Below, one piece after another: positions 5,627-62,513 of a stretch of 64,000 nucleotides of DNA (position 1 is its first letter; every line of letters begins with the position of its first letter). The position numbers and the translations under genes were made by a program. Under the pieces are notes generated by a model. That model saw nothing but the letters and a program-made list of their open reading frames with translations. It was not told the DNA's origin and did not search any database. This stretch comes from Parcubacteria group bacterium (GTDB taxonomy: Bacteria; Patescibacteriota; Minisyncoccia; JACPHC01): positions 344 through 64,343 of the forward strand of contig JACPHC010000003.1 of assembly GCA_016188775.1 (NCBI GenBank). Direction: 5' to 3'.

Positions 5627-5670
5627 AGTCAAGTTTTACATCTAAATAATTTATATGATAAAATATAACT

Positions 5671-6753
5671 ATGTCATTTTTTTCTTTCAAAGAAACCGCT
5701 ATCGGCCTTGATATTTCCGATTATTCGATTAAAGCCGTTTATTTAAAAAATACGCGCCAAGGTAAAATTATTAAAAATCTTTTTGAACTAGCCATACCGC
5801 CGGGCTTAATTAATCAAGGAGAAATTCAAAATCAGGATAAACTTTTTGAAATTTTTAAAGAATTTTTAAAAAAAATTAAGGCCAGCCGAATTAAAACGCC
5901 CTATATCGTCTCTTCTTTGCCGGAAGAAAAATCATTTATCTCGGTTATTCAGCTCCCCAAAATGGAAGAGAAAGAAATAGGATCGGCTCTTGGTTTTGAA
6001 ATTGAGGCTAATGTTCCTTACGCCTTTCAAGAAGTTTATTTTGACTGGAAAAGCCTGCCTTCGGCCAGCCTCGATCATCTGGATATTCTGGTCGCGGCTT
6101 CGCCTAAAAAAATAGTTGATTCTTATTTTTCTCTTCTCAAGCGCCTAAAACTTATATCGGTCGCTTTTGAAATTGAATCGCAAGCCATTGCCAGAGCTTT
6201 AATCAAAAATGAAATCCAAGAAAAACCGATATTGCTTATTGATTTAGGCGCGACCCGCACCAGTTTCATTATTTTTTCCGGCGGCTCTATTCGTTTTACT
6301 TCTTCCATCCCCGTCTCGTCCAAAGATTTAACTTCAGCTATCGCTGACGTCCTAAAAATTCCGGAAAATGAAGCCGAAATTTTAAAAATCAAACACGGGC
6401 TTGATAAAAAAGGGACGGAAGGAATTAAAATATTTGACGCGATTCTGCCGCGCCTAACCGCTCTCATTGAAAAAATTCAAAATCTCATTATTTTTTACCA
6501 AAGCCACGCCAAACACGAACACGGCCGGATTTTGGAATTCGAAAATATTCTTCTTTCCGGCGGAGGCGCCAATCTGGCCGGCCTTTCTCAATATTTAAAA
6601 GAGGAATTAAAACGAAAAATTGGATTAGGCAACCCTTTCGTTAATCTGGCAAAATCGCCAACAAAATTTTTATCTGATCTGGCGCCTGATAAGGCCGTCG
6701 CCTTCACCACCGCCATTGGCCTGGCTTTAAGAAACATTGAAACGGAAATTTAA
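5671..6753 (+). CDS. pilM: Type IV pilus assembly protein PilM (actin-like ATPase)
   Basis: N-terminus AIGLDISDYSIKAVYL, a typical PilM start, plus an actin-fold sugar-kinase-like pattern. Confidence 0.8.
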   Translation: MSFFSFKETAIGLDISDYSIKAVYLKNTRQGKIIKNLFELAIPPGLINQGEIQNQDKLFEIFKEFLKKIKASRIKTPYIVSSLPEEKSFISVIQLPKMEEKEIGSALGFEIEANVPYAFQEVYFDWKSLPSASLDHLDILVAASPKKIVDSYFSLLKRLKLISVAFEIESQAIARALIKNEIQEKPILLIDLGATRTSFIIFSGGSIRFTSSIPVSSKDLTSAIADVLKIPENEAEILKIKHGLDKKGTEGIKIFDAILPRLTALIEKIQNLIIFYQSHAKHEHGRILEFENILLSGGGANLAGLSQYLKEELKRKIGLGNPFVNLAKSPTKFLSDLAPDKAVAFTTAIGLALRNIETEI

Positions 6754-56081: not shown

Positions 56082-56450
56082 TTATTCCACGTGCTTTAAA
56101 CAAGTTTTGGCGGCCGGGTTGGCTTCCAATCGCTCCAATTCAATTTTTTCTTGGCCGATTTCGCAAAAACCGTATTGGCCGGCTTTCATTTTAACAAGCG
56201 CGGCGTCAACTTCTTTTAATCTCAATTCCAAAACATGTTCTTCGCCCACTAAATTATCGTATTCCTCAACTTCATCTTGCGCCTCATCGCGATAAATTCC
56301 GATTTCCTGGCCAAATTGAGGATAACGAGTGTCCCAGTCGCCTTTTAATTTCGGGTCCCTTTTGGCAAAACGAGAAAGAGTGTTTTCCAAATCTTTTTTT
56401 TCTTTAATCAGAGCCGATTCTAATTTTTCTAAAAATTTTTGATCTAACAT
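56082..56450 (-). CDS. DksA/TraR-family C4 zinc-finger protein
   Basis: GQYGFCEIGQEKIELERLEANPAAKTCLKH, a DksA-type zinc finger. Confidence 0.75.
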   Translation of the reverse strand: MLDQKFLEKLESALIKEKKDLENTLSRFAKRDPKLKGDWDTRYPQFGQEIGIYRDEAQDEVEEYDNLVGEEHVLELRLKEVDAALVKMKAGQYGFCEIGQEKIELERLEANPAAKTCLKHVE

Positions 56451-56486: not shown

Positions 56487-56750
56487 TTACAAGTGTTTAT
56501 AAATATCTTTACGGTGATCAATATCAAAAAAGATCACTGTTGTCATGTCTTGAAAATAAAATAAAACTCTATATTGACGAGTAATTCTAAATGAAAAAGC
56601 ATATTCAAGAGAATAAACTTTTTTGATATGTAATCGTGAATCACGCCAGTTATTAACAAAACGCTCCTTTTGGATTTCAAAAAAGCGTTGGATATTTTTT
56701 GGTAATTTAGAAAAATTATGATCAAAATCTTCAGAACAGATTATCCGCAT
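56487..56750 (-). CDS. RelE/ParE-family toxin
   Basis: An 87-aa product with YRVLFYFQDMTTVIFFDIDHRKDIY, the RelE/ParE C-terminal signature. Confidence 0.6.
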   Translation of the reverse strand: MRIICSEDFDHNFSKLPKNIQRFFEIQKERFVNNWRDSRLHIKKVYSLEYAFSFRITRQYRVLFYFQDMTTVIFFDIDHRKDIYKHL

Positions 56751-56950
56751 AATAATCTTGGAGGATATTTTTTTAAGGCTTTCTGATATGAATTTTTAAT
56801 CCGTTCCGGATGCGCGTATTCTTTAATATTTTCTCGTGGAAGAATTAATGTGATTTCCTGACGCAAAAAACGCACTTCTTGCAAAAGAGAATTTAGTGTT
56901 TTATTGATGTTTAATTTATCTTTTTGAATTTTAACAGTCGTTGTATTCAT
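56741..56950 (-). CDS. Putative cognate antitoxin (69 aa)
   Basis: Directly upstream of the toxin with a 10-nt overlap; a palindromic operator lies upstream. Confidence 0.45.
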   Translation of the reverse strand: MNTTTVKIQKDKLNINKTLNSLLQEVRFLRQEITLILPRENIKEYAHPERIKNSYQKALKKYPPRLLCG

Positions 56951-56972
56951 AATCCCAGTATATCAATAATAA

Positions 56973-56996
56973 AACGCAAGTCAATTTCCTTGCGTT
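56973..56996. promoter_or_regulatory. Palindromic operator candidate AACGCAAG-TCAATTTC-CTTGCGTT between the toxin-antitoxin operon and rpsO
   Basis: 8-bp inverted arms 23 nt upstream of the antitoxin start. Confidence 0.4.
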
Positions 56997-57025
56997 AATT
57001 AAAAAAATATAGTAAAGTGTTTGTA

Positions 57026-57292
57026 ATGTTAAACGTTAAAGAAAAAACTAAAATCATTGAATCATACAAACTTCACGAAAGAGACACCGGCTCGACCGAA
57101 GTGCAAATCGCCATTATGACCGAGGAAATTGACCGGCTGGCCGAACATCTCAAAAAACACGCCAAAGACAACCACTCGCGAAGAGGGCTTTTGAAAATGG
57201 TGGCGAAAAGAAAAAAATTCCTCGATTTGCTTAAAAACGAAAACGAAAAGCGGTATAATACTTTAATTAAAAAATTGGGATTAAAAAAATAA
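57026..57292 (+). CDS. rpsO: 30S ribosomal protein S15
   Basis: [29 protein letters not shown] ... an S15 signature; 88 aa. Confidence 0.95.
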
Positions 57293-57819
57293 TGTCCGTT
57301 ATCAAACATAAAGATCAGCGAGTGGCGGTTTTGATTGACGTGCAAAATATGTACCACTCGGCCAGAAATCTCTACAACGCCCGGGTGAATTTTAACGAGA
57401 TTGTCCGTCAGGCCGTTGGCGGCCGGCGATTGGTTCGGGCTTTGGCTTACGTGGTTCGCACCAAAACCGGCGAAGAAAAACCCTTTATCGAAGCTTTGAG
57501 CAAACTCGGCATTGAAATCCGGGAAAAAGATCTCCAGGAATTTTTCGGCGGCGCCAAAAAAGCCGACTGGGACGTGGGCATTACCATTGACGCGGTCAGA
57601 CTTTCGGAAATCGTGGACGCGGTGGTTCTGGCTTCCGGCGATGGCGATTTTATTCCGGTCTTGGAATATCTGAAAGGCCGAGGCCGGCAAGCCGAAGTAA
57701 TCGCTTTTGGCCGCACCGCTTCCAGCCGCCTTAGAGAATCAGCCGATGACTTCATTGATTTGGGAGAAAATAAAGAAAAATTTTTAATTAAAACCAGTCG
57801 AAAAAAAATAATTAAATGA
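57292..57819 (+). CDS. NYN-domain (LabA-like, PIN-like) protein
   Basis: VAVLIDVQNMYHS ... DVGITIDAV ... LASGDGDFIPVLE is the NYN pattern. Its start overlaps the rpsO stop (TAATG). Confidence 0.75.
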   Translation: MSVIKHKDQRVAVLIDVQNMYHSARNLYNARVNFNEIVRQAVGGRRLVRALAYVVRTKTGEEKPFIEALSKLGIEIREKDLQEFFGGAKKADWDVGITIDAVRLSEIVDAVVLASGDGDFIPVLEYLKGRGRQAEVIAFGRTASSRLRESADDFIDLGENKEKFLIKTSRKKIIK

Positions 57820-57890
57820 ATAAAACCATTCTGGCCAAAGGGAAGAGTTTATAAAAAAACTTCCCTCTGTTCAGAATGGCTGATTAAATC

Positions 57891-59981
57891 GTGAAAACGA
57901 AAAAACATGTTTTTGAAAAAGAATTCGCGGGTCAAACCCTGCGTTACGAAATAGGGGAATTAGCCGAACAAGCCAACGCGGCCGTTTTTGCCCATTACGG
58001 CGAAACCAGCGTTTTGGTAACGGTCGTGATGTCAAAAAATGTTCGCGAGAGCATTGATTATATGCCGCTGACCGTGGATTATGAAGAGCGTTTTTACGCC
58101 GCGGGGAAAATTTTGGGCAGCCGATTCTTGCGCCGCGAAGGTCGGGCCTCAACTGAAGCGATGTTGAACGGCCGACTGATTGATCGAGCTCTGCGGCCTC
58201 TTTTTAATCCGTGGATGAGAAACGATGTCCAAATTATCGCCACGGTCCTTTCTTTTGACGGAAAAAACGATCCGGCCGTGCTGGGTTTAAACGCCGCTTC
58301 TTTGGCGCTTCTCATTTCCGATATTCCCTGGTCAGGCCCCATCGGCGCTTTAAGAGTAGGTCAAGCCAATAATGAATTTGTCGTTGGAATGGCCTTCTCC
58401 GAAAACTCTTCTCTGGACGCGGTTTTGGCCGGCAGTCAAGAAAAAATTATTATGATCGAAGCCGGAGCCGATCAAATTTCGGAATCGGACTTTCTCGATT
58501 CTATCCAATTCAGCCAAAAATATTTAGGCGAACTGGTTGATTTCCAAAACGAAATAGCCCAAAAAATCGGCCAAACGAAAAAAGCCATCGTCATTGAAGA
58601 GCCGGACAAAGAACTGATGGATTTAATCGAAAAAATTGTCGGCCAAAAACTCGATGAAGCTTTGTACCGGCCCGGAAAAATAGAGCGGATGGAAGAGTTG
58701 GGAATTTTAAAAGAAGAATGGCGAAACGCGGTCAAAGAAAAATGGCCGGATGATTTTCTGAAATTAAAACTGGGGGAAAACGCTTTTGAAGAAAAAATAA
58801 ACGCCATCGTCCATCGAAATATTATTGAAAAAAATAAAAGGCCGGATGGCCGCCAACTGGACGAAGTCAGGCCTCTTTCCGTTTCTGTTCCGTTTTTGAA
58901 ACGGGCCCACGGCTCGGCTCTTTTTGTCCGGGGGCAAACCCAATCCCTTTCAATTTTAACTTTAGGAGCTCCCGGAGACGAACTTTTAATTGAAGGAATG
59001 GAAATCCGGGAGAAAAAAAGATTTATCCATCACTATAATTTTCCGCCTTTTTCCAGCGGCGAAATCAAACCCCTAAGAGGCCCGGGCCGAAGAGAAATCG
59101 GCCACGGCGCTTTGGCGGAAAAAGCCCTGTTGCCGATCATACCGAATCAAGAAAAATTTCCTTACACAATCCGAATCGTCTCGGAAATCCTGTCTTCCAA
59201 CGGATCAACTTCCATGGCCTCGGCCACCAGCTCCACTTTGGCTTTAATGGACGCGGGCGTACCCATCAAAGAAATGGTCACCGGTATTGCCATGGGACTG
59301 ATGAGCGATGAAAAAGGCAATTTTAAAATTTTAACCGATATTCAAGGTCCGGAAGATCATCACGGCGATATGGATTTGAAAGTCGCCGGCACCAAAAATG
59401 GCATCACCGCGATTCAAATGGACGTCAAAGTCCACGGCGTTAGCGAAAAAATACTGGCGGCCGGAATAAAGCAAGCCAAAGAAGCCAGAGAGCATATATT
59501 AAAAACAGTAAGAGAAGCGATCAGCGAGCCGAGACCGGAACTTTCGCCTTACGCCCCTCGAGTGTTGACAATTCAAATCAATCCGGAAAAAATCGGCGAA
59601 GTCATTGGTCCGGGCGGAAAAATGATCAATAAAATTATCGCCGAGACCGGCGCGGAAATTGATATTGAAGACAGTGGCGTCGTTTTTATCACAGCCGAAA
59701 ATCCGGAAGCCGCGAACAAGGCTTTGGCTTGGGTCAAAAACATTGTCCGAGAAGCCAAGCCCGGAGAAATCTTTGAAGGCAAGGTTGTCAGAATTATGGA
59801 TTTTGGCGCTTTCGTGGAAATCCTTCCCGGGCAAGACGGCTTGGTTCACATCTCGGAAATTTCTCCAAAACGAATTGAAAAAGTGACTGATGTTTTGAAA
59901 ATCGGCGATATAGTCACGGTTAAAGTCAAAAACATTGATGAACTGGGCAGGATAAACCTGACAATCAAAGGGGCAAAATAA
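57891..59981 (+). CDS. pnp: Polyribonucleotide nucleotidyltransferase (PNPase)
   Basis: GTG start; two RNase PH domains, a KH domain (GPGGKMINKIIAETGAEIDIED) and an S1 domain (GKVVRIMDFGAFVEIL). Confidence 0.95.
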   Translation: MKTKKHVFEKEFAGQTLRYEIGELAEQANAAVFAHYGETSVLVTVVMSKNVRESIDYMPLTVDYEERFYAAGKILGSRFLRREGRASTEAMLNGRLIDRALRPLFNPWMRNDVQIIATVLSFDGKNDPAVLGLNAASLALLISDIPWSGPIGALRVGQANNEFVVGMAFSENSSLDAVLAGSQEKIIMIEAGADQISESDFLDSIQFSQKYLGELVDFQNEIAQKIGQTKKAIVIEEPDKELMDLIEKIVGQKLDEALYRPGKIERMEELGILKEEWRNAVKEKWPDDFLKLKLGENAFEEKINAIVHRNIIEKNKRPDGRQLDEVRPLSVSVPFLKRAHGSALFVRGQTQSLSILTLGAPGDELLIEGMEIREKKRFIHHYNFPPFSSGEIKPLRGPGRREIGHGALAEKALLPIIPNQEKFPYTIRIVSEILSSNGSTSMASATSSTLALMDAGVPIKEMVTGIAMGLMSDEKGNFKILTDIQGPEDHHGDMDLKVAGTKNGITAIQMDVKVHGVSEKILAAGIKQAKEAREHILKTVREAISEPRPELSPYAPRVLTIQINPEKIGEVIGPGGKMINKIIAETGAEIDIEDSGVVFITAENPEAANKALAWVKNIVREAKPGEIFEGKVVRIMDFGAFVEILPGQDGLVHISEISPKRIEKVTDVLKIGDIVTVKVKNIDELGRINLTIKGAK

Positions 59982-60158: not shown

Positions 60159-61265
60159 TTGATGGAAACTAATAACAAAAGAATTCCTTTACGGACGATG
60201 AAAGCGGATATTGAAGCCGCTAAAAAATTGGGAGCTAAACCCTCTTTGCAATCAAAACCGGCTCCATCCGCGCCAACTCCTTTGCCGACCGGCAGTCCAT
60301 CGTCCGCTCCGCCGCCCGCTCCCGCGCCGCTCTCTTCTAAACTGCCTCAACCACAACCCTTGCCTCAATCTGAACCAAAACCAATAGAACCTCAAATTCC
60401 GGTTTATCGTCCGAGCGAGCCGAAAATTAAATTTGAAACGCCAATGGAAGAAATGGATGAAAAAATCAACATACCGGAAATAGAAAAAGAGCGGGAAGAA
60501 GTTTCAGCGATCAAAGCCCGCCTTGAGCGGGAAAGAGCCGCTATGCTGGAAAAAGAAGTGGCGGACCTGGAATCCAAAATCGAAGAAATGGAAAAAGAAG
60601 AATGGATTCATGTCCGGCAGGAAGAAGAAATTAAAAAACTCAAAGAACAGCTGGAATTTTTAAGAAAAGAAAGGGAACTGGCCATTAAAAAAACCGTAAC
60701 GGAAAAAGAAAAAGAGTTTGAACCGCTCAAAGAACAGCTGAAGCTGTTAGAAGAAGAGCGTTTGATATTGGCCCAGCGGTCCATCAAGGCCGAATCCAAA
60801 ATCAACGAGCTGACTTTAAAAACCAGAGAGCTGGAAGCCTTGACCGCCATGGGTCTGCGCAAAGAAAAGATTATTGAAGCCGCTAAAACCAAATTGGTCA
60901 AATTAGAAGAGAAAATCGCTGAAGCCGAAAAGAAAAAAGCTTTGGTTCGCGCCAAAGAAATGGCCCGGGAATCGGAAAAAGAAGAAAAAATAAGAGAATT
61001 AAAGAAACAAATTGACGCCTTGGAAACTGAAAAAACATTGATTAAGGGAGAGGAAGAAAGAGAAATTAAAATCATTGAATCGGGAATTGAAGACGTTAAA
61101 AGCGAAGAAAAAAATATCCTTTCTGAAGAAATGAGAGCCCTGGAAGAAGAACGCCTCAAAGCCAAAGAAGAACAAGAAAAAGTCAGCTCGATGATTGAAG
61201 AATTAAAAAGCCGAATTAGCGCTAAAACCGAATCGGAAGAATTAGGCTCAAAGCTTGAATTATAA
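60159..61265 (+). CDS. Hypothetical protein: Pro-rich N-terminal region followed by a long Glu/Lys-rich coiled coil
   Basis: Composition and heptad-like EK repeats. The antisense ORF 60608..61558 is a low-complexity artefact. Confidence 0.5.
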   Translation: MMETNNKRIPLRTMKADIEAAKKLGAKPSLQSKPAPSAPTPLPTGSPSSAPPPAPAPLSSKLPQPQPLPQSEPKPIEPQIPVYRPSEPKIKFETPMEEMDEKINIPEIEKEREEVSAIKARLERERAAMLEKEVADLESKIEEMEKEEWIHVRQEEEIKKLKEQLEFLRKERELAIKKTVTEKEKEFEPLKEQLKLLEEERLILAQRSIKAESKINELTLKTRELEALTAMGLRKEKIIEAAKTKLVKLEEKIAEAEKKKALVRAKEMARESEKEEKIRELKKQIDALETEKTLIKGEEEREIKIIESGIEDVKSEEKNILSEEMRALEEERLKAKEEQEKVSSMIEELKSRISAKTESEELGSKLEL

Positions 61266-61268
61266 AAA

Positions 61269-62513
61269 ATGACTCCAACTAATTTCGATGAAGAAAAAGA
61301 GGATCTTTTGCATCGAATTGTCCAAGCAAGGCGTAAACTTGAAGAACTGCGCGCTTCAGGTCCTAAACCCGCCCCGGAAATCAAAATAGAAACGGAAATT
61401 AAAAAACCGGAGTTTAAAATTGAAGAATCCGAAAGGTTAAAATTGGAAGCCGAAGAAGAAATACGAAAAATCATTGAAAAAAAACCGGAAATTCCCGAAG
61501 CGGAAATTATAAAACCCCTGCCGATTTTGCCGGAAGAAAAACCGGAAATCTTGTTCAAGCCAAAACTTGAACCGATTATTCGGACTATGCATCAAGATAT
61601 CGCCGAACTCAAACCTAAAACAACTGAACCGTTAAAACCAATAACTCCGCCCATCGCGGTCCCGCTTCCTCAAAGATTTTCTCCGGCCAAAACTCCTCAG
61701 GTTCTGCCTAAAAATTTTTTCAAAATAATTTTCGCCGGTCTCATCGCCGTTTTGTTCCTCGCGTTGATTGGAGGAAGCGTTGGTTGGTATTTTAAATATC
61801 AGCCGGCCCTACCTCGAATTAAAAAGTTGGAAGCCCCGGAAAGTTTTATTCGCTCTGAAAAAAATACTGTCATTGAACTGGCAACGCTCAACGAAAAAAC
61901 AATCAGACAGGCCGTCCAAAACGAAACGGTTTCTCTTGAAAAAAATACTTTCAAAGAAATTTATTTTAAAAAGTCTTTTGCCGAACAATTTTGCCGATTT
62001 GGCAAATGCGTCAACGTCAGCCGAGAAAAATTTATTGCTTCAAAAGATTTTTTTCAAGCTTTGGAAATTCGAGCGCCGGAATCGTTTTTTGAATCGCTGG
62101 AACCTGAATTCAATATTTTAATATTCAATCAAAATGATCAACCCAGGCGCGGTTTAATTTTCCAAAGCCGAGATTTGGAAAAAACCCGTTTTGCCCTGGA
62201 AACTTGGCCCGACATTATTAACGATTTAGCTTTTTTATTTGAAGGCATTCCGATTGGCATTGAAGCTAAGGCTCAACCGTTTAAAGACGGATTGTATCAA
62301 AATATCTCGTTTCGAAGCATCGATTTGGGCGGTTTTAACTCTTCGTTTGATTATTTTTTCTTCCCGGCTAAAAATATTGTGATTTTAAGTTCTTCCGGCG
62401 ATTTAACTCGAGAATTAATTAACCGATTATTAGGCCAGCCCGAAATTATTCCGTCGATTATTGAAATAATTCCCGAACAAACCATTCCTTCTCCGAAACC
62501 TATTTTTCCGTAG
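61269..62513 (+). CDS. Hypothetical membrane-anchored protein
   Basis: Internal TM helix FKIIFAGLIAVLFLALIGGSVGWYF; placed 4 nt after the previous gene. Confidence 0.5.
   Translation: MTPTNFDEEKEDLLHRIVQARRKLEELRASGPKPAPEIKIETEIKKPEFKIEESERLKLEAEEEIRKIIEKKPEIPEAEIIKPLPILPEEKPEILFKPKLEPIIRTMHQDIAELKPKTTEPLKPITPPIAVPLPQRFSPAKTPQVLPKNFFKIIFAGLIAVLFLALIGGSVGWYFKYQPALPRIKKLEAPESFIRSEKNTVIELATLNEKTIRQAVQNETVSLEKNTFKEIYFKKSFAEQFCRFGKCVNVSREKFIASKDFFQALEIRAPESFFESLEPEFNILIFNQNDQPRRGLIFQSRDLEKTRFALETWPDIINDLAFLFEGIPIGIEAKAQPFKDGLYQNISFRSIDLGGFNSSFDYFFFPAKNIVILSSSGDLTRELINRLLGQPEIIPSIIEIIPEQTIPSPKPIFP

What the first reader, a model, noticed from the sequence alone, without database searches (positions are those of the whole stretch)
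57292..57890. NYN-domain (PIN-like) protein inserted between rpsO and pnp, with a hairpin in the pnp leader
rpsO and pnp normally form a two-gene operon with a regulated leader. Here a 175-aa NYN/LabA-like predicted RNase starts on the rpsO stop codon (TAATG) and precedes a GGGAAG...CTTCCC hairpin (57845-57867) in front of the GTG start of pnp. A dedicated nuclease co-transcribed with PNPase suggests an unusual RNA-processing arrangement.
Basis: partly seen in the sequence, partly recalled or inferred. Interest (0 to 1): 0.55.

Follow-up and report, generated by a model that had tools for sequence, protein, structure and literature searches.

The report
Conserved NYN nuclease in rpsO–pnp operon
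A small predicted RNA-cutting enzyme (NYN domain) sits between the ribosomal protein S15 gene and the PNPase gene, followed by a long RNA hairpin in front of PNPase; this is not a quirk of this genome but the standard layout across Parcubacteria-type ultra-small bacteria, and it points to an RNA-processing job for a protein family with no known function.

Summary
rpsO (57017/57026-57292), a 175-aa ORF (57292-57819) starting on the rpsO stop (TAATG), and pnp (57891-59981) lie head to tail. The ORF is a full-length NYN domain (PF01936, E 1.3e-33). Its acidic active-site residues are invariant, and its fold matches 2QIP and the MARF1 endonuclease. The hairpin is real but larger than reported (57826-57879, z -5.1).

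The layout is not unusual for the lineage. In 80 related Patescibacteria/Parcubacteria genomes, S15 lies directly upstream of the NYN gene in 77 and PNPase downstream in about 70. The trio persists down to about 52% NYN identity.

A long stable stem-loop just before pnp is also the rule. In 27 loci it is a covarying motif with an AGG/AA internal loop, found only in front of pnp and absent from Rfam. The window's hairpin is a positional analogue, not a member.

Best reading (inferred): a housekeeping endoribonuclease co-expressed with S15 and PNPase, plus an E. coli-like RNase III-type pnp leader hairpin. I found no literature linking NYN/COG1432 to rpsO-pnp.

Verdict: a new variant of a known operon, moderately interesting. 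The nuclease activity, its substrates and the hairpin's role are all untested.

The parts
56924..56953 (+). Candidate sigma-70-like promoter of the operon (TTGAAT-18-CATAAT), about 70 nt upstream of rpsO
   Evidence: Consensus scan only, 9 of 12 matches. Weak evidence.
56974..57079 (+). Possible S15 autoregulatory leader-like structure spanning the rpsO start (includes hairpin AACGCAAG...CTTGCGTT, 56973-56996)
   Evidence: Sub-threshold Rfam RF00114 hit, 18.6 bits against a gathering score of 39.5, E 0.16. A similar sub-threshold hit lies at the same relative place in L019 (23.6 bits). Not established.
57017..57292 (+). rpsO, ribosomal protein S15 (ORF from GTG 57017; likelier start ATG 57026, giving 88 aa)
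   Evidence: PF00312 E 1.1e-31 and TIGR00952 116 bits. The 267-nt length is typical of relatives. L091 begins MLNVKEK.
57290..57294 (+). TAATG junction: rpsO stop and NYN start share one base (translational coupling signature)
   Evidence: Sequence read directly. The S15-NYN gap is 15 nt or less in 26 of 78 related loci.
57292..57819 (+). NYN-domain (LabA-like, COG1432-type) predicted metal-dependent endoribonuclease, 175 aa, with a short basic C-terminal tail
   Evidence: PF01936 E 1.3e-33. 2QIP E 5e-26. AF2 pLDDT 88; TM 0.82/0.88 to 2QIP and about 0.65/0.75 to MARF1 NYN. D16, N19, D92, D94, D100, D117 and D119 are invariant in 80 orthologues.
57826..57879 (+). pnp leader hairpin: outer stem CCAUUCUGG/UCAGAAUGG, two 1x1 mismatches, inner stem AGGGAAG/CUUCCCU, 14-nt A/U-rich loop. 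It ends 11 nt before the pnp start and has no U-tract after it.
   Evidence: MFE -27.5 kcal/mol, z -5.1. Not terminator-like. Long stems sit at the same place in relatives. It does not match the AGG/AA motif model R1 (0.5 bits) or any Rfam family.
57891..59981 (+). pnp, polynucleotide phosphorylase (GTG start), 696 aa with 2x RNase PH, KH and S1 domains
   Evidence: NF008805 900 bits and TIGR03591 891 bits. Pfam domains. The N-terminus aligns with L081.

Best explanation
The region is a three-gene rpsO-NYN-pnp operon, the standard layout in Parcubacteria-type Patescibacteria. In the window the three genes are most likely transcribed together. The NYN gene is translationally coupled to rpsO through the TAATG overlap.

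The NYN protein is a stand-alone LabA/COG1432-type NYN nuclease with an intact acidic metal-binding site. I infer that it is a housekeeping endoribonuclease that cuts single-stranded RNA. In this model it supplies internal cuts and new 3' ends for the 3'-5' exonuclease PNPase, a role that RNase E plays for rpsO mRNA in E. coli. These reduced genomes are reported to keep only RNase J, RNase III and PNPase as core RNases.

The 54-nt hairpin 11 nt upstream of pnp corresponds in position to the E. coli pnp leader stem-loop. It is about two helical turns of duplex, which suits RNase III. Cleavage there would uncouple pnp expression from rpsO-NYN and allow PNPase-dependent feedback on its own mRNA.

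Shown: gene identities, overlap, fold, conserved catalytic residues, conserved synteny, and a conserved structured pnp leader. Inferred: nuclease activity, its substrates, cooperation with PNPase, and RNase III cleavage or autoregulation.
For: - **NYN identity and active site:**. MARF1, the nearest characterised fold match, is an experimentally shown endoribonuclease (title and abstract of PMC6294520).
- **Synteny:** S15 lies upstream in 77 of 80 loci and PNPase downstream in about 70 of 80. The order is still S15-NYN-PNPase at 52% identity (L090). NYN and PNPase overlap even where S15 is absent (L083).
- **Tight junctions:** the S15-NYN gap is 15 nt or less in 26 of 78 loci, and the NYN-pnp gap in 18 of 71.
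- **Strong constraint:** median NYN identity is 65%, against 52% for PNPase and 57% for S15 in the same 65 loci.
- **Co-transcription in the window:** no terminator-like or promoter-like site lies in the two junctions.
- **Structured leader:** 41 of 43 NYN-pnp spacers have z < -2, with a median of -6.2, against -2.6 for control spacers. The motif model R1 hits 27 loci, always 13-41 nt upstream of pnp and nowhere else in 761 kb. All 17 pairs show compensatory changes, with a covariation score of 0.78 against 0.22 or less for slid controls. The motif stays with pnp when 0.6-1.3 kb is inserted after the NYN gene (L056, L057, L062, L072).
- **E. coli precedent:** RNase III cleaves a long stem-loop in the pnp leader and triggers PNPase autoregulation (PMC5029454).
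- **CPR RNase repertoire:** rnc, rnj and pnp are retained in at least 90% of CPR genomes (PMC12641178).
- **Basic tails:** many orthologues carry long K/R-rich disordered C-terminal tails, which fit RNA binding.
Against: - No biochemical data exist for any bacterial COG1432-type NYN protein. The 2017 PIN-superfamily review lists the cluster as 'function unknown' (PMC5499597).
- LabA, the family's namesake, is known only as a clock-output regulator.
- Gene order shows co-inheritance, not physical or functional partnership. In about half of the loci with an S15-NYN spacer over 25 nt (24 of 51), and in 14 of 47 NYN-pnp spacers, terminator-like hairpins separate the genes. The trio is therefore not always one tight transcription unit.
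- rpsO-NYN persists without pnp downstream in at least 6 loci (L013, L033, L048, L074, L076, L089).
- The window's hairpin does not match the conserved motif, and its sequence is not conserved even in the 85%-identical relative L081.
- RNase III was not found in the 64-kb window, although that is uninformative for the whole genome.
- The identity comparison is biased, because the loci were chosen by NYN similarity.
Confidence: 0.5

Rival explanations
1. The NYN protein is a ribosome-linked nuclease whose real partner is S15 and the 30S subunit. It would mature or quality-control 16S rRNA, as a functional analogue of the PIN-domain Nob1 or of YbeY, or cut mRNA on the ribosome as the NYN protein Rae1/YacP does. 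PNPase would be only a downstream neighbour that also acts on rRNA.
For: The coupling to rpsO is the tightest and most persistent link: TAATG in the window, S15 upstream in 77 of 80 loci, and rpsO-NYN kept where pnp is not downstream (L013, L033, L048, L074, L076, L089). CPR have about half the usual ribosome-biogenesis factors (abstract of PMC12641178), which leaves room for a lineage-specific factor. Earlier context analyses implicated bacterial NYN domains in tRNA/rRNA processing (PMC5499597). The basic tails resemble rRNA-binding extensions.
Against: NYN-pnp overlap occurs without S15 in L083. Terminator-like hairpins follow rpsO in 24 of 51 spacers, so co-expression with S15 is not obligatory. 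There is no similarity to YacP/Rae1 (no PF05991 hit). No rRNA genes are nearby. No direct evidence of ribosome association exists.
Confidence: 0.25
2. The NYN protein is an operon-specific regulator. It recognises and cuts the pnp leader hairpin, for example at the conserved AGG/AA internal loop in relatives. It would thereby replace or supplement RNase III in setting the PNPase:S15 ratio.
For: The structured leader lies directly downstream of the NYN gene. A conserved asymmetric internal loop of unpaired purines in 27 loci is the sort of feature a single-strand-specific nuclease or a binding protein could read. Some PIN-like RNases recognise stem-loops (Regnase-1; own knowledge, not tested here).
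Against: A protein more conserved than PNPase across hundreds of species is hard to explain by a single cis target whose sequence is not conserved (window vs L081 vs L004). Many loci have no spacer at all between NYN and pnp (gap 15 nt or less in 18 of 71) yet keep the NYN gene. The motif travels with pnp, not with NYN, when the two are separated. NYN is kept where pnp is not adjacent.
Confidence: 0.1
3. The protein is a non-catalytic or regulatory LabA-like factor, an RNA- or protein-binding adaptor, and the hairpin is merely a stabilising or terminator-type structure. Neither would have a special link to RNA decay.
For: The only genetically studied family member, LabA, is known as a circadian output regulator with no demonstrated nuclease activity (PMC5499597). 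Stable hairpins are common in intergenic regions of these genomes (58% of control spacers have z < -2).
Against: All predicted metal-binding acidic residues are invariant in 80 orthologues and shared with 2QIP. That is unexpected for a non-enzyme. The window hairpin lacks a U-tract. The hairpin position is fixed relative to the pnp start (0-20 nt) and is enriched over controls (74% against 38% with z < -4), with covariation in 27 loci.
Confidence: 0.1
4. The NYN gene is a mobile, toxin-like or anti-phage defence nuclease that happened to insert between rpsO and pnp.
For: A partial match to the PADLOC 'LabA-like NYN' model (54 bits over profile positions 193-301 of 310). An unannotated small two-gene cassette of toxin-antitoxin-like layout lies just upstream (56487-56950, minus strand).
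Against: Stable synteny holds across at least 70 species with 60-74% identity. There are no flanking repeats or integrase dependence, only one copy in the window, and no partner defence genes. The PADLOC match covers only the shared domain.
Confidence: 0.02

Closest known systems
E. coli / Streptomyces rpsO-pnp operon with the RNase III-cleaved pnp leader stem-loop (PNPase autoregulation)
   Same: Same gene order and strand (rpsO then pnp). A long stable stem-loop sits immediately upstream of the pnp start. Many relatives also have a terminator-like hairpin after the upstream gene(s), like E. coli t1.
   Different: A third, highly conserved gene (NYN nuclease) sits between rpsO and pnp. In the window there is no rpsO terminator and no detectable internal pnp promoter. 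The hairpin has no sequence similarity to the enterobacterial one. RNase III cleavage and autoregulation are untested.
NYN.COG1432 / LabA-like NYN proteins (PDB 2QIP, Vibrio VPA0982; Synechococcus LabA)
   Same: Same Pfam family and fold. About 32-40% identity to 2QIP over the whole domain, with the same D..N, DWD and GDGD motifs. Single-domain architecture.
   Different: Embedded in a conserved ribosomal-protein/RNase operon, a context not reported for this cluster (PMC5499597 lists SpoU, RNase T and Udg4 neighbours only). Many orthologues carry long basic disordered C-terminal tails. No link to clock genes.
MARF1 / DNE1 NYN endoribonucleases (eukaryotic mRNA decay)
   Same: Same NYN fold (TM about 0.65-0.75) and acidic active site. 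They work within mRNA-decay machinery together with exonucleolytic or decapping factors.
   Different: Only about 17-19% identity. The eukaryotic proteins carry RRM/LOTUS domains for targeting. The protein here is a bare domain.
Rae1/YacP (NYN_YacP, PF05991), ribosome-dependent endoribonuclease of B. subtilis
   Same: A small bacterial NYN-class nuclease encoded in a translation/RNA-processing operon.
   Different: A different Pfam family: no PF05991 hit, and IDVQNMY in place of the D-GYN motif described for YacP (PMC5499597). It also lies in a different operon (gltX-cysS-mrnC-yacO-yacP).
Phage T7 RNase III processing signals with an asymmetric internal loop (own knowledge, not tested here)
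   Same: The conserved motif in relatives is a two-stem hairpin interrupted by a small asymmetric internal loop (3x2, AGG/AA).
   Different: No sequence relationship. It lies in a cellular 5' leader. The window's own hairpin has two 1x1 mismatches instead.

Membership tests
Pfam NYN domain (PF01936) | Profile HMM match above the gathering score over the full domain | tested here: met
   117 bits against a cutoff of 24.2, E 1.3e-33, profile positions 1-144 of 145.
Pfam NYN domain (PF01936) | Conserved acidic residues predicted to bind the catalytic metal (Asp after strand 1, central Asp(s), GDGD-type motif) | tested here: met
   D16, N19, D92, D94, D100, D117 and D119 are invariant in 80 orthologues and aligned with 2QIP.
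Pfam NYN domain (PF01936) | PIN-like alpha/beta fold of the NYN type | tested here: met
   AF2 model pLDDT 88, pTM 0.84. Foldseek: 2QIP E 2.9e-16, TM 0.82/0.88; MARF1 NYN TM about 0.65/0.75.
Pfam NYN domain (PF01936) | Metal-dependent ribonuclease activity | not testable with these tools
   Requires enzyme assays. No bacterial COG1432 member has been characterised in the literature I searched.
NYN.COG1432 / LabA-like cluster (Matelska 2017) | Closest sequence relationship to 2QIP/LabA-type proteins, as opposed to the NYN.1, NYN.2, NYN.3 or YacP clusters | tested here: met
   2QIP is the only PDB sequence hit, at E 5.1e-26. JGI names for homologues read 'LabA/DUF88 family'.
TIGR00288 NYN family (NCBIfam hypothetical equivalog) | Score above the curated cutoff | tested here: not met
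   31.1 bits against a cutoff of 178.45, C-terminal half only.
NYN_YacP / Rae1 (PF05991) | PF05991 profile match and a GYN motif after the first Asp | tested here: not met
   No PF05991 hit at E <= 0.01. The sequence reads IDVQNMY. The motif definition is from PMC5499597.
Enterobacterial-type rpsO-pnp operon with autoregulatory leader | rpsO immediately followed by pnp on the same strand | tested here: not met
   Same strand and order, but a 528-nt NYN gene intervenes.
Enterobacterial-type rpsO-pnp operon with autoregulatory leader | Long stem-loop in the pnp 5' leader | tested here: met
   Hairpin 57826-57879, z -5.1. The same holds in 41 of 43 related spacers.
Enterobacterial-type rpsO-pnp operon with autoregulatory leader | RNase III cleavage of that stem and PNPase-dependent feedback | not testable with these tools
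   Needs end mapping or enzymology. rnc is reported to be retained in at least 90% of CPR genomes (PMC12641178), but none is encoded in this window.
Enterobacterial-type rpsO-pnp operon with autoregulatory leader | rpsO terminator (t1) and a second promoter (P2) between rpsO and pnp | tested here: not met
   No terminator-like or promoter-like site lies in 57290-57890 apart from a weak promoter-like match inside rpsO. Terminator-like hairpins do occur after rpsO in 24 of 51 related spacers.
Parcubacterial pnp-leader hairpin motif (defined here, model R1: P1 10 bp / 3x2 AGG-AA loop / P2 >= 7 bp) | Significant covariance-model match just upstream of pnp | tested here: not met
   The window hairpin scores 0.5 bits, E 8.4, with filters off. 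27 related loci score 21-54 bits.
Rfam S15 leader (RF00114) | Score above the gathering threshold upstream of rpsO | tested here: not met
   18.6 bits against 39.5. L019 scores 23.6 bits.
Rho-independent terminator | GC-rich stem followed by a U-tract | tested here: not met
   The tail after the hairpin is CTGATTAAATCG. It is not listed by the terminator scan.
PADLOC defence-associated LabA-like NYN | Full-length model match plus defence-system neighbours | tested here: not met
   Partial match only (54 bits, profile positions 193-301 of 310). The neighbours are rpsO and pnp in at least 70 species.

The most novel reading that the evidence does not exclude
The NYN protein is the missing general endoribonuclease of Parcubacteria. 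It would be a minimal, S15-coupled partner of PNPase, in effect a two-enzyme degradosome, possibly organised by the basic disordered tails seen in orthologues. It might also double as a 16S rRNA 3'-end maturase. It would compensate for the loss of RNase E/G/Y-type enzymes in these reduced genomes. That would give the first molecular function to the large bacterial LabA/COG1432 NYN family. The covarying AGG/AA pnp-leader hairpin would be a new cis-regulatory RNA class read by this machinery.
Probability: 0.3. Interest if true: 0.7.

Novelty: new variant of a known kind. Interest (0 to 1): 0.5.

Why it matters
Bacterial LabA-type NYN proteins form a very large family. A 2017 survey counted more than 8,700 sequences. 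Here I counted 3,972 clusters at 50% identity. Their molecular function is still listed as unknown.

A conserved, often translationally coupled position between S15 and PNPase, across hundreds of Parcubacteria species, is a strong guilt-by-association clue. It makes a specific hypothesis directly testable: an endonuclease partner of PNPase, or a 30S-linked RNase.

CPR bacteria have a pared-down set of RNases and ribosome-biogenesis factors. Identifying a lineage-specific core nuclease would therefore fill a real gap in how these organisms turn over and process RNA.

The structured pnp leader suggests that post-transcriptional control of PNPase through a leader stem-loop is ancient and widespread. 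This includes a covarying motif that is absent from Rfam.

Tried and rejected
1. **Rfam.** I searched the window region at a permissive threshold, 12 motif-bearing loci at gathering threshold and 7 further loci at E <= 1. No family covers the pnp leader hairpin. Only tRNAs, sub-threshold S15-leader hits and spurious miRNA/rliD hits appeared. The rliD hits lie antisense to the pnp 5' coding region and probably reflect coding-sequence similarity.
2. **Terminator reading of the hairpin.** Rejected, because there is no U-tract.
3. **Membership of the window hairpin in the conserved AGG/AA motif.** Rejected, at 0.5 bits.
4. **Covariation for the window's own hairpin.** I looked in the closest relatives. 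L081 (85% NYN identity) has a different 23-bp stem. The L091 contig ends too early. L001, L002 and L004 have unrelated long structures. No covariation test was therefore possible for this exact hairpin.
5. **Domain fusions as a Rosetta-stone clue.** Ten long homologues carry only the NYN domain plus low-complexity tails or coiled coil.
6. **Defence or mobile-element reading.** Rejected on synteny.
7. **Literature.** No paper in the library combines NYN domain with rpsO/pnp or with CPR terms.
8. **First fold-statistics script.** My dinucleotide shuffler hung. I reran with mononucleotide shuffles, so those z-scores are somewhat optimistic. The window value uses dinucleotide shuffles.
9. **Shine-Dalgarno sequestration by the hairpin.** Inspected by eye. 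There is no consistent SD in the 3' arm, so I did not pursue it.
10. **Phyletic range beyond Parcubacteria.** 37 of 80 loci carry the NCBI label 'uncultured Candidatus Saccharibacteria bacterium'. These are bulk third-party assemblies that interleave with Parcubacteria in identity, so I do not trust the label.
Full report
**1. The observation**

The ORF map and the sequence show three co-directional genes on the + strand.
- **rpsO.** The ORF runs 57017-57292. It is S15 by PF00312 (E 1.1e-31) and TIGR00952 (116 bits).
- **NYN ORF.** It runs 57292-57819 (175 aa), and its ATG shares one base with the rpsO stop codon (TAATG at 57290-57294).
- **pnp.** It runs 57891-59981 from a GTG start (NF008805 900 bits).

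The middle ORF is a full-length NYN domain: PF01936 at E 1.3e-33, 117 bits against a cutoff of 24.2, over profile positions 1-144 of 145.

It is the inner stem of a larger 54-nt hairpin, 57826-57879. Its MFE is -27.5 kcal/mol, its z-score is -5.1, and none of 200 dinucleotide shuffles folds as well. The hairpin ends 11 nt before the pnp start and has no U-tract after it. No terminator-like or promoter-like site lies in either junction. The true rpsO start is probably ATG 57026, which gives the 267-nt gene length seen in most relatives.

**2. The protein**

The only solved structure with sequence similarity is 2QIP (Vibrio VPA0982, unknown function), at E 5e-26. An AlphaFold model built from 37 homologues is confident (pLDDT 88). 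It superposes on 2QIP (TM 0.82/0.88) and next on the NYN domain of MARF1 (TM about 0.65/0.75), an experimentally established endoribonuclease.

In an alignment of 80 orthologues, the predicted metal-binding residues are invariant and are shared with 2QIP: D16, N19, D92, D94, D100, D117 and D119. The protein is not a YacP/Rae1-type NYN (no PF05991 hit). It does not reach the TIGR00288 cutoff (31 against 178 bits). It belongs to the LabA-like NYN.COG1432 cluster, which the 2017 classification of the PIN-like superfamily lists as 'function unknown' (PMC5499597).

**3. How common the arrangement is**

The exact protein is in NCBI as a 'Parcubacteria group bacterium' NYN-domain protein (P0001). A scan of one genome per species found at least 563 species with a relative. 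The 80 best loci (60-74% identity) are all Patescibacteria/Parcubacteria-type MAGs: Sungbacteria, Ryanbacteria, Kaiserbacteria, Yonathbacteria, Nealsonbacteria, Portnoybacteria, Niyogibacteria, Giovannonibacteria, Staskawiczbacteria, Tagabacteria and others.

tblastn with the window's S15, NYN and PNPase proteins gives these results:
- S15 lies immediately upstream of the NYN gene in 77 of 80 loci, with a median gap of 81 nt. The gap is 15 nt or less in 26 of 78.
- PNPase lies downstream in about 70 of 80 loci, with a median gap of 127 nt. The gap is 15 nt or less, or the genes overlap, in 18 of 71.

More distant members confirm the range and its limits:

| Homologue | NYN identity | Context |
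|---|---|---|
| L090 | 52% | XerC-S15-NYN-PNPase |
| L083 | 51% | HD-NYN-PNPase, NYN and pnp overlapping, no S15 |
| L089 (also L013, L076) | 58% | S15-NYN-unknown-ComM-like, no pnp downstream |
| L082, L084, L086 | 42-43% | Unrelated contexts |
| P0171 (labelled Woesearchaeota) | 50% | Next to thioredoxin and Zip genes |

The arrangement is a lineage-wide conserved variant of the rpsO-pnp operon and not a local oddity. Across 65 loci with all three genes, NYN is more conserved (median 65% identity) than PNPase (52%) in all 65, and more than S15 (57%) in 60. This comparison is biased, because the loci were selected by NYN similarity.

**4. The hairpin in context**

I folded the NYN-pnp spacers of 43 loci with gaps of 40-450 nt. 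Of these, 41 have z < -2, and the median is -6.2 (mononucleotide shuffles). Sixty other co-directional spacers from the same loci have a median of -2.6. The fraction with z < -4 is 74% against 38%.

Two elements recur.
- **A terminator-like hairpin.** It follows the NYN stop in 14 of 47 spacers. A similar one follows rpsO in 24 of 51 spacers longer than 25 nt. This echoes the E. coli rpsO terminator t1.
- **A long hairpin ending 0-20 nt before the pnp start**.
  - In 30 of the 69 loci folded, a scan of the predicted structures found a stem with a 3x2 internal loop (about 27 after setting aside loose matches such as L002, L004 and L060). The loop is mostly 5'-AGG-3'/5'-AA-3'.
  - Twenty-one compact examples align cleanly (A1). 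In that alignment 93.8% of cells are paired, and all 17 pairs show compensatory changes. The covariation score is 0.78, against 0.22 or less for slid partners. The expanded alignment gives similar numbers. The seeds were picked from predicted folds, which inflates the pairing figure but not the diversity of pair types.
  - A covariance model (R1) finds the motif in 27 of 80 loci. Every hit lies 13-41 nt upstream of pnp, and there are no hits elsewhere in 761 kb.
  - The motif stays with pnp when 0.6-1.3 kb separates pnp from the NYN gene (L056, L057, L062, L072). It is therefore a pnp leader element.
  - Rfam 15 has no matching family.

The window's hairpin does not match R1 (0.5 bits). The closest relative, L081 (85% NYN identity), has a different, perfect 23-bp stem at the same place, and L090 has yet another stem of about 23 bp. 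What is conserved throughout is a stem of roughly two helical turns immediately before pnp.

**5. Mechanism**

In E. coli, RNase III cleaves a long stem-loop in the pnp leader of both the rpsO-pnp and the pnp transcripts, and this triggers PNPase-dependent autoregulation (PMC5029454). CPR genomes are reported to retain rnc, rnj and pnp in at least 90% of genomes, while having about half the usual ribosome-biogenesis factors (PMC12641178).

The most economical reading is that the hairpin is the Parcubacterial counterpart of that leader. In the window it would process a tricistronic transcript and allow feedback on pnp.

For the NYN protein I commit to a housekeeping, metal-dependent endoribonuclease that is co-expressed with S15 and PNPase. 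It would generate entry sites for PNPase, and possibly remove protective 3' hairpins. Confidence is about 0.5 for the whole package.

Three points are shown:
- the fold and the active-site conservation;
- the synteny and the coupling signatures;
- the structured leader.

Three points are inferred:
- the nuclease activity;
- its substrates;
- the partnership with PNPase.

The main rival (0.25) is a 30S/16S-rRNA-linked role. It is favoured by the tighter and more persistent rpsO-NYN link. Lesser rivals are an operon-specific regulator that cuts the leader (0.1), a non-catalytic LabA-like factor (0.1) and a mobile or defence nuclease (0.02, contradicted by synteny). Many orthologues carry long K/R/S/N-rich disordered C-terminal tails with no Pfam domain. 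These tails fit nonspecific RNA binding under either of the first two models.

**6. Comparison with the known, and novelty**

The parts are known kinds: the S15 gene, the PNPase gene, a LabA-type NYN domain and a pnp leader stem-loop. I found three things that are not described in the searchable literature:
- the conserved placement of a COG1432-type NYN nuclease inside the rpsO-pnp operon across Parcubacteria;
- its unusually high conservation;
- a covarying AGG/AA pnp-leader motif that is absent from Rfam.

I rate this a new variant of a known kind, with interest 0.5. It is not surprising enough to overturn anything. It does give a concrete, testable functional hypothesis for a very large uncharacterised nuclease family, and for RNA metabolism in CPR bacteria.

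**7. Limits**

- No experiment supports nuclease activity, RNase III cleavage or co-transcription.
- The phyletic range outside Parcubacteria-type lineages was not resolved.
- The z-scores use mononucleotide shuffles.
- The covariation counts are not phylogeny-corrected.
- The window's own hairpin could not be tested for covariation, because close relatives carry different stems.

Noticed in passing
Related loci, e.g. L067 1204-1248, L072 6755-6803, L018 4842-4889, L006 5573-5623 (27 loci in all): A conserved, covarying hairpin motif lies 13-41 nt upstream of pnp: P1 of about 10 bp, a 3x2 internal loop (mostly AGG/AA), then P2 of at least 7 bp. It is found nowhere else in 761 kb and is absent from Rfam 15. 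It is a candidate new cis-regulatory RNA of Parcubacteria. The window itself lacks it.
   Followed up: yes
L029 about 5660-5840, L044 about 990-1215, L014 about 2640-2790: In some loci the same AGG/AA (or UCC/AC) leader hairpin carries a 60-120-nt structured insertion in its apical loop. The compact covariance model therefore misses them, and the true motif frequency is higher than 27 of 80.
   Followed up: no
window 56974-57079 (+); L019 4691-4788: Sub-threshold matches to the Rfam S15 leader (RF00114; 18.6 and 23.6 bits against 39.5) span the rpsO start in two independent genomes. This hints at an S15 autoregulatory structure. A hairpin AACGCAAG...CTTGCGTT sits at 56973-56996.
   Followed up: partly
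window 57017-57030: The mechanical rpsO ORF starts at GTG 57017. ATG 57026 (MLNVKEK...) gives the 88-aa, 267-nt length typical of relatives and is the likelier start.
   Followed up: partly
window 56487-56750 and 56741-56950 (minus strand): Two small overlapping ORFs (87 and 69 aa) with a toxin-antitoxin-like layout lie between the DksA-like gene and rpsO. They have no hit in Pfam, NCBIfam or PADLOC.
   Followed up: partly
window 56082-56450 (minus strand) vs loci L002-L073: A DksA/TraR-type zinc-finger gene (yteA-like, sub-threshold) lies upstream of rpsO on the opposite strand in the window. In about 50 of the 80 related loci its homologue lies on the same strand about 1-2 kb downstream of pnp. 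This suggests a local rearrangement in this genome, and a wider conserved neighbourhood rpsO-NYN-pnp-X-dksA-like.
   Followed up: partly
P0137, P0165, P0129, P0122 (orthologues at 48-61% identity): Many NYN orthologues carry 50-250-residue Lys/Arg/Ser/Asn-rich, apparently disordered C-terminal tails with no Pfam domain. The window protein has only a short basic tail (residues 160-175).
   Followed up: partly
L087 4105-4653 / L088 (protein P0171): A 50%-identical NYN homologue is labelled 'Candidatus Woesearchaeota archaeon' in NCBI. It sits next to thioredoxin, Zip and DsbA-like genes, not rpsO or pnp. This is either CPR-DPANN gene sharing or a binning error.
   Followed up: no
L013 5001-8479, L076 4968-8951, L089 3656-7081: A sub-lineage (Yonathbacteria-like) keeps rpsO-NYN, but these are followed by an unknown gene of about 260-330 aa and a ComM/Mg-chelatase-like gene instead of pnp. 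Whether pnp was moved or lost is unknown.
   Followed up: partly
window 60159-61265 and 61269-62513 (+): Directly downstream of pnp are two ORFs (368 and 414 aa). The first is an extremely Glu/Lys-rich coiled-coil-like protein with a Pro-rich N-terminus. Neither has an NCBIfam hit.
   Followed up: no
record titles (37 of 80 loci): Many bulk third-party MAGs are labelled 'uncultured Candidatus Saccharibacteria bacterium', yet their S15, NYN and PNPase proteins interleave in identity with named Parcubacteria. The NCBI label is probably a generic Patescibacteria placeholder and should not be read as evidence for Saccharimonadia.
   Followed up: no
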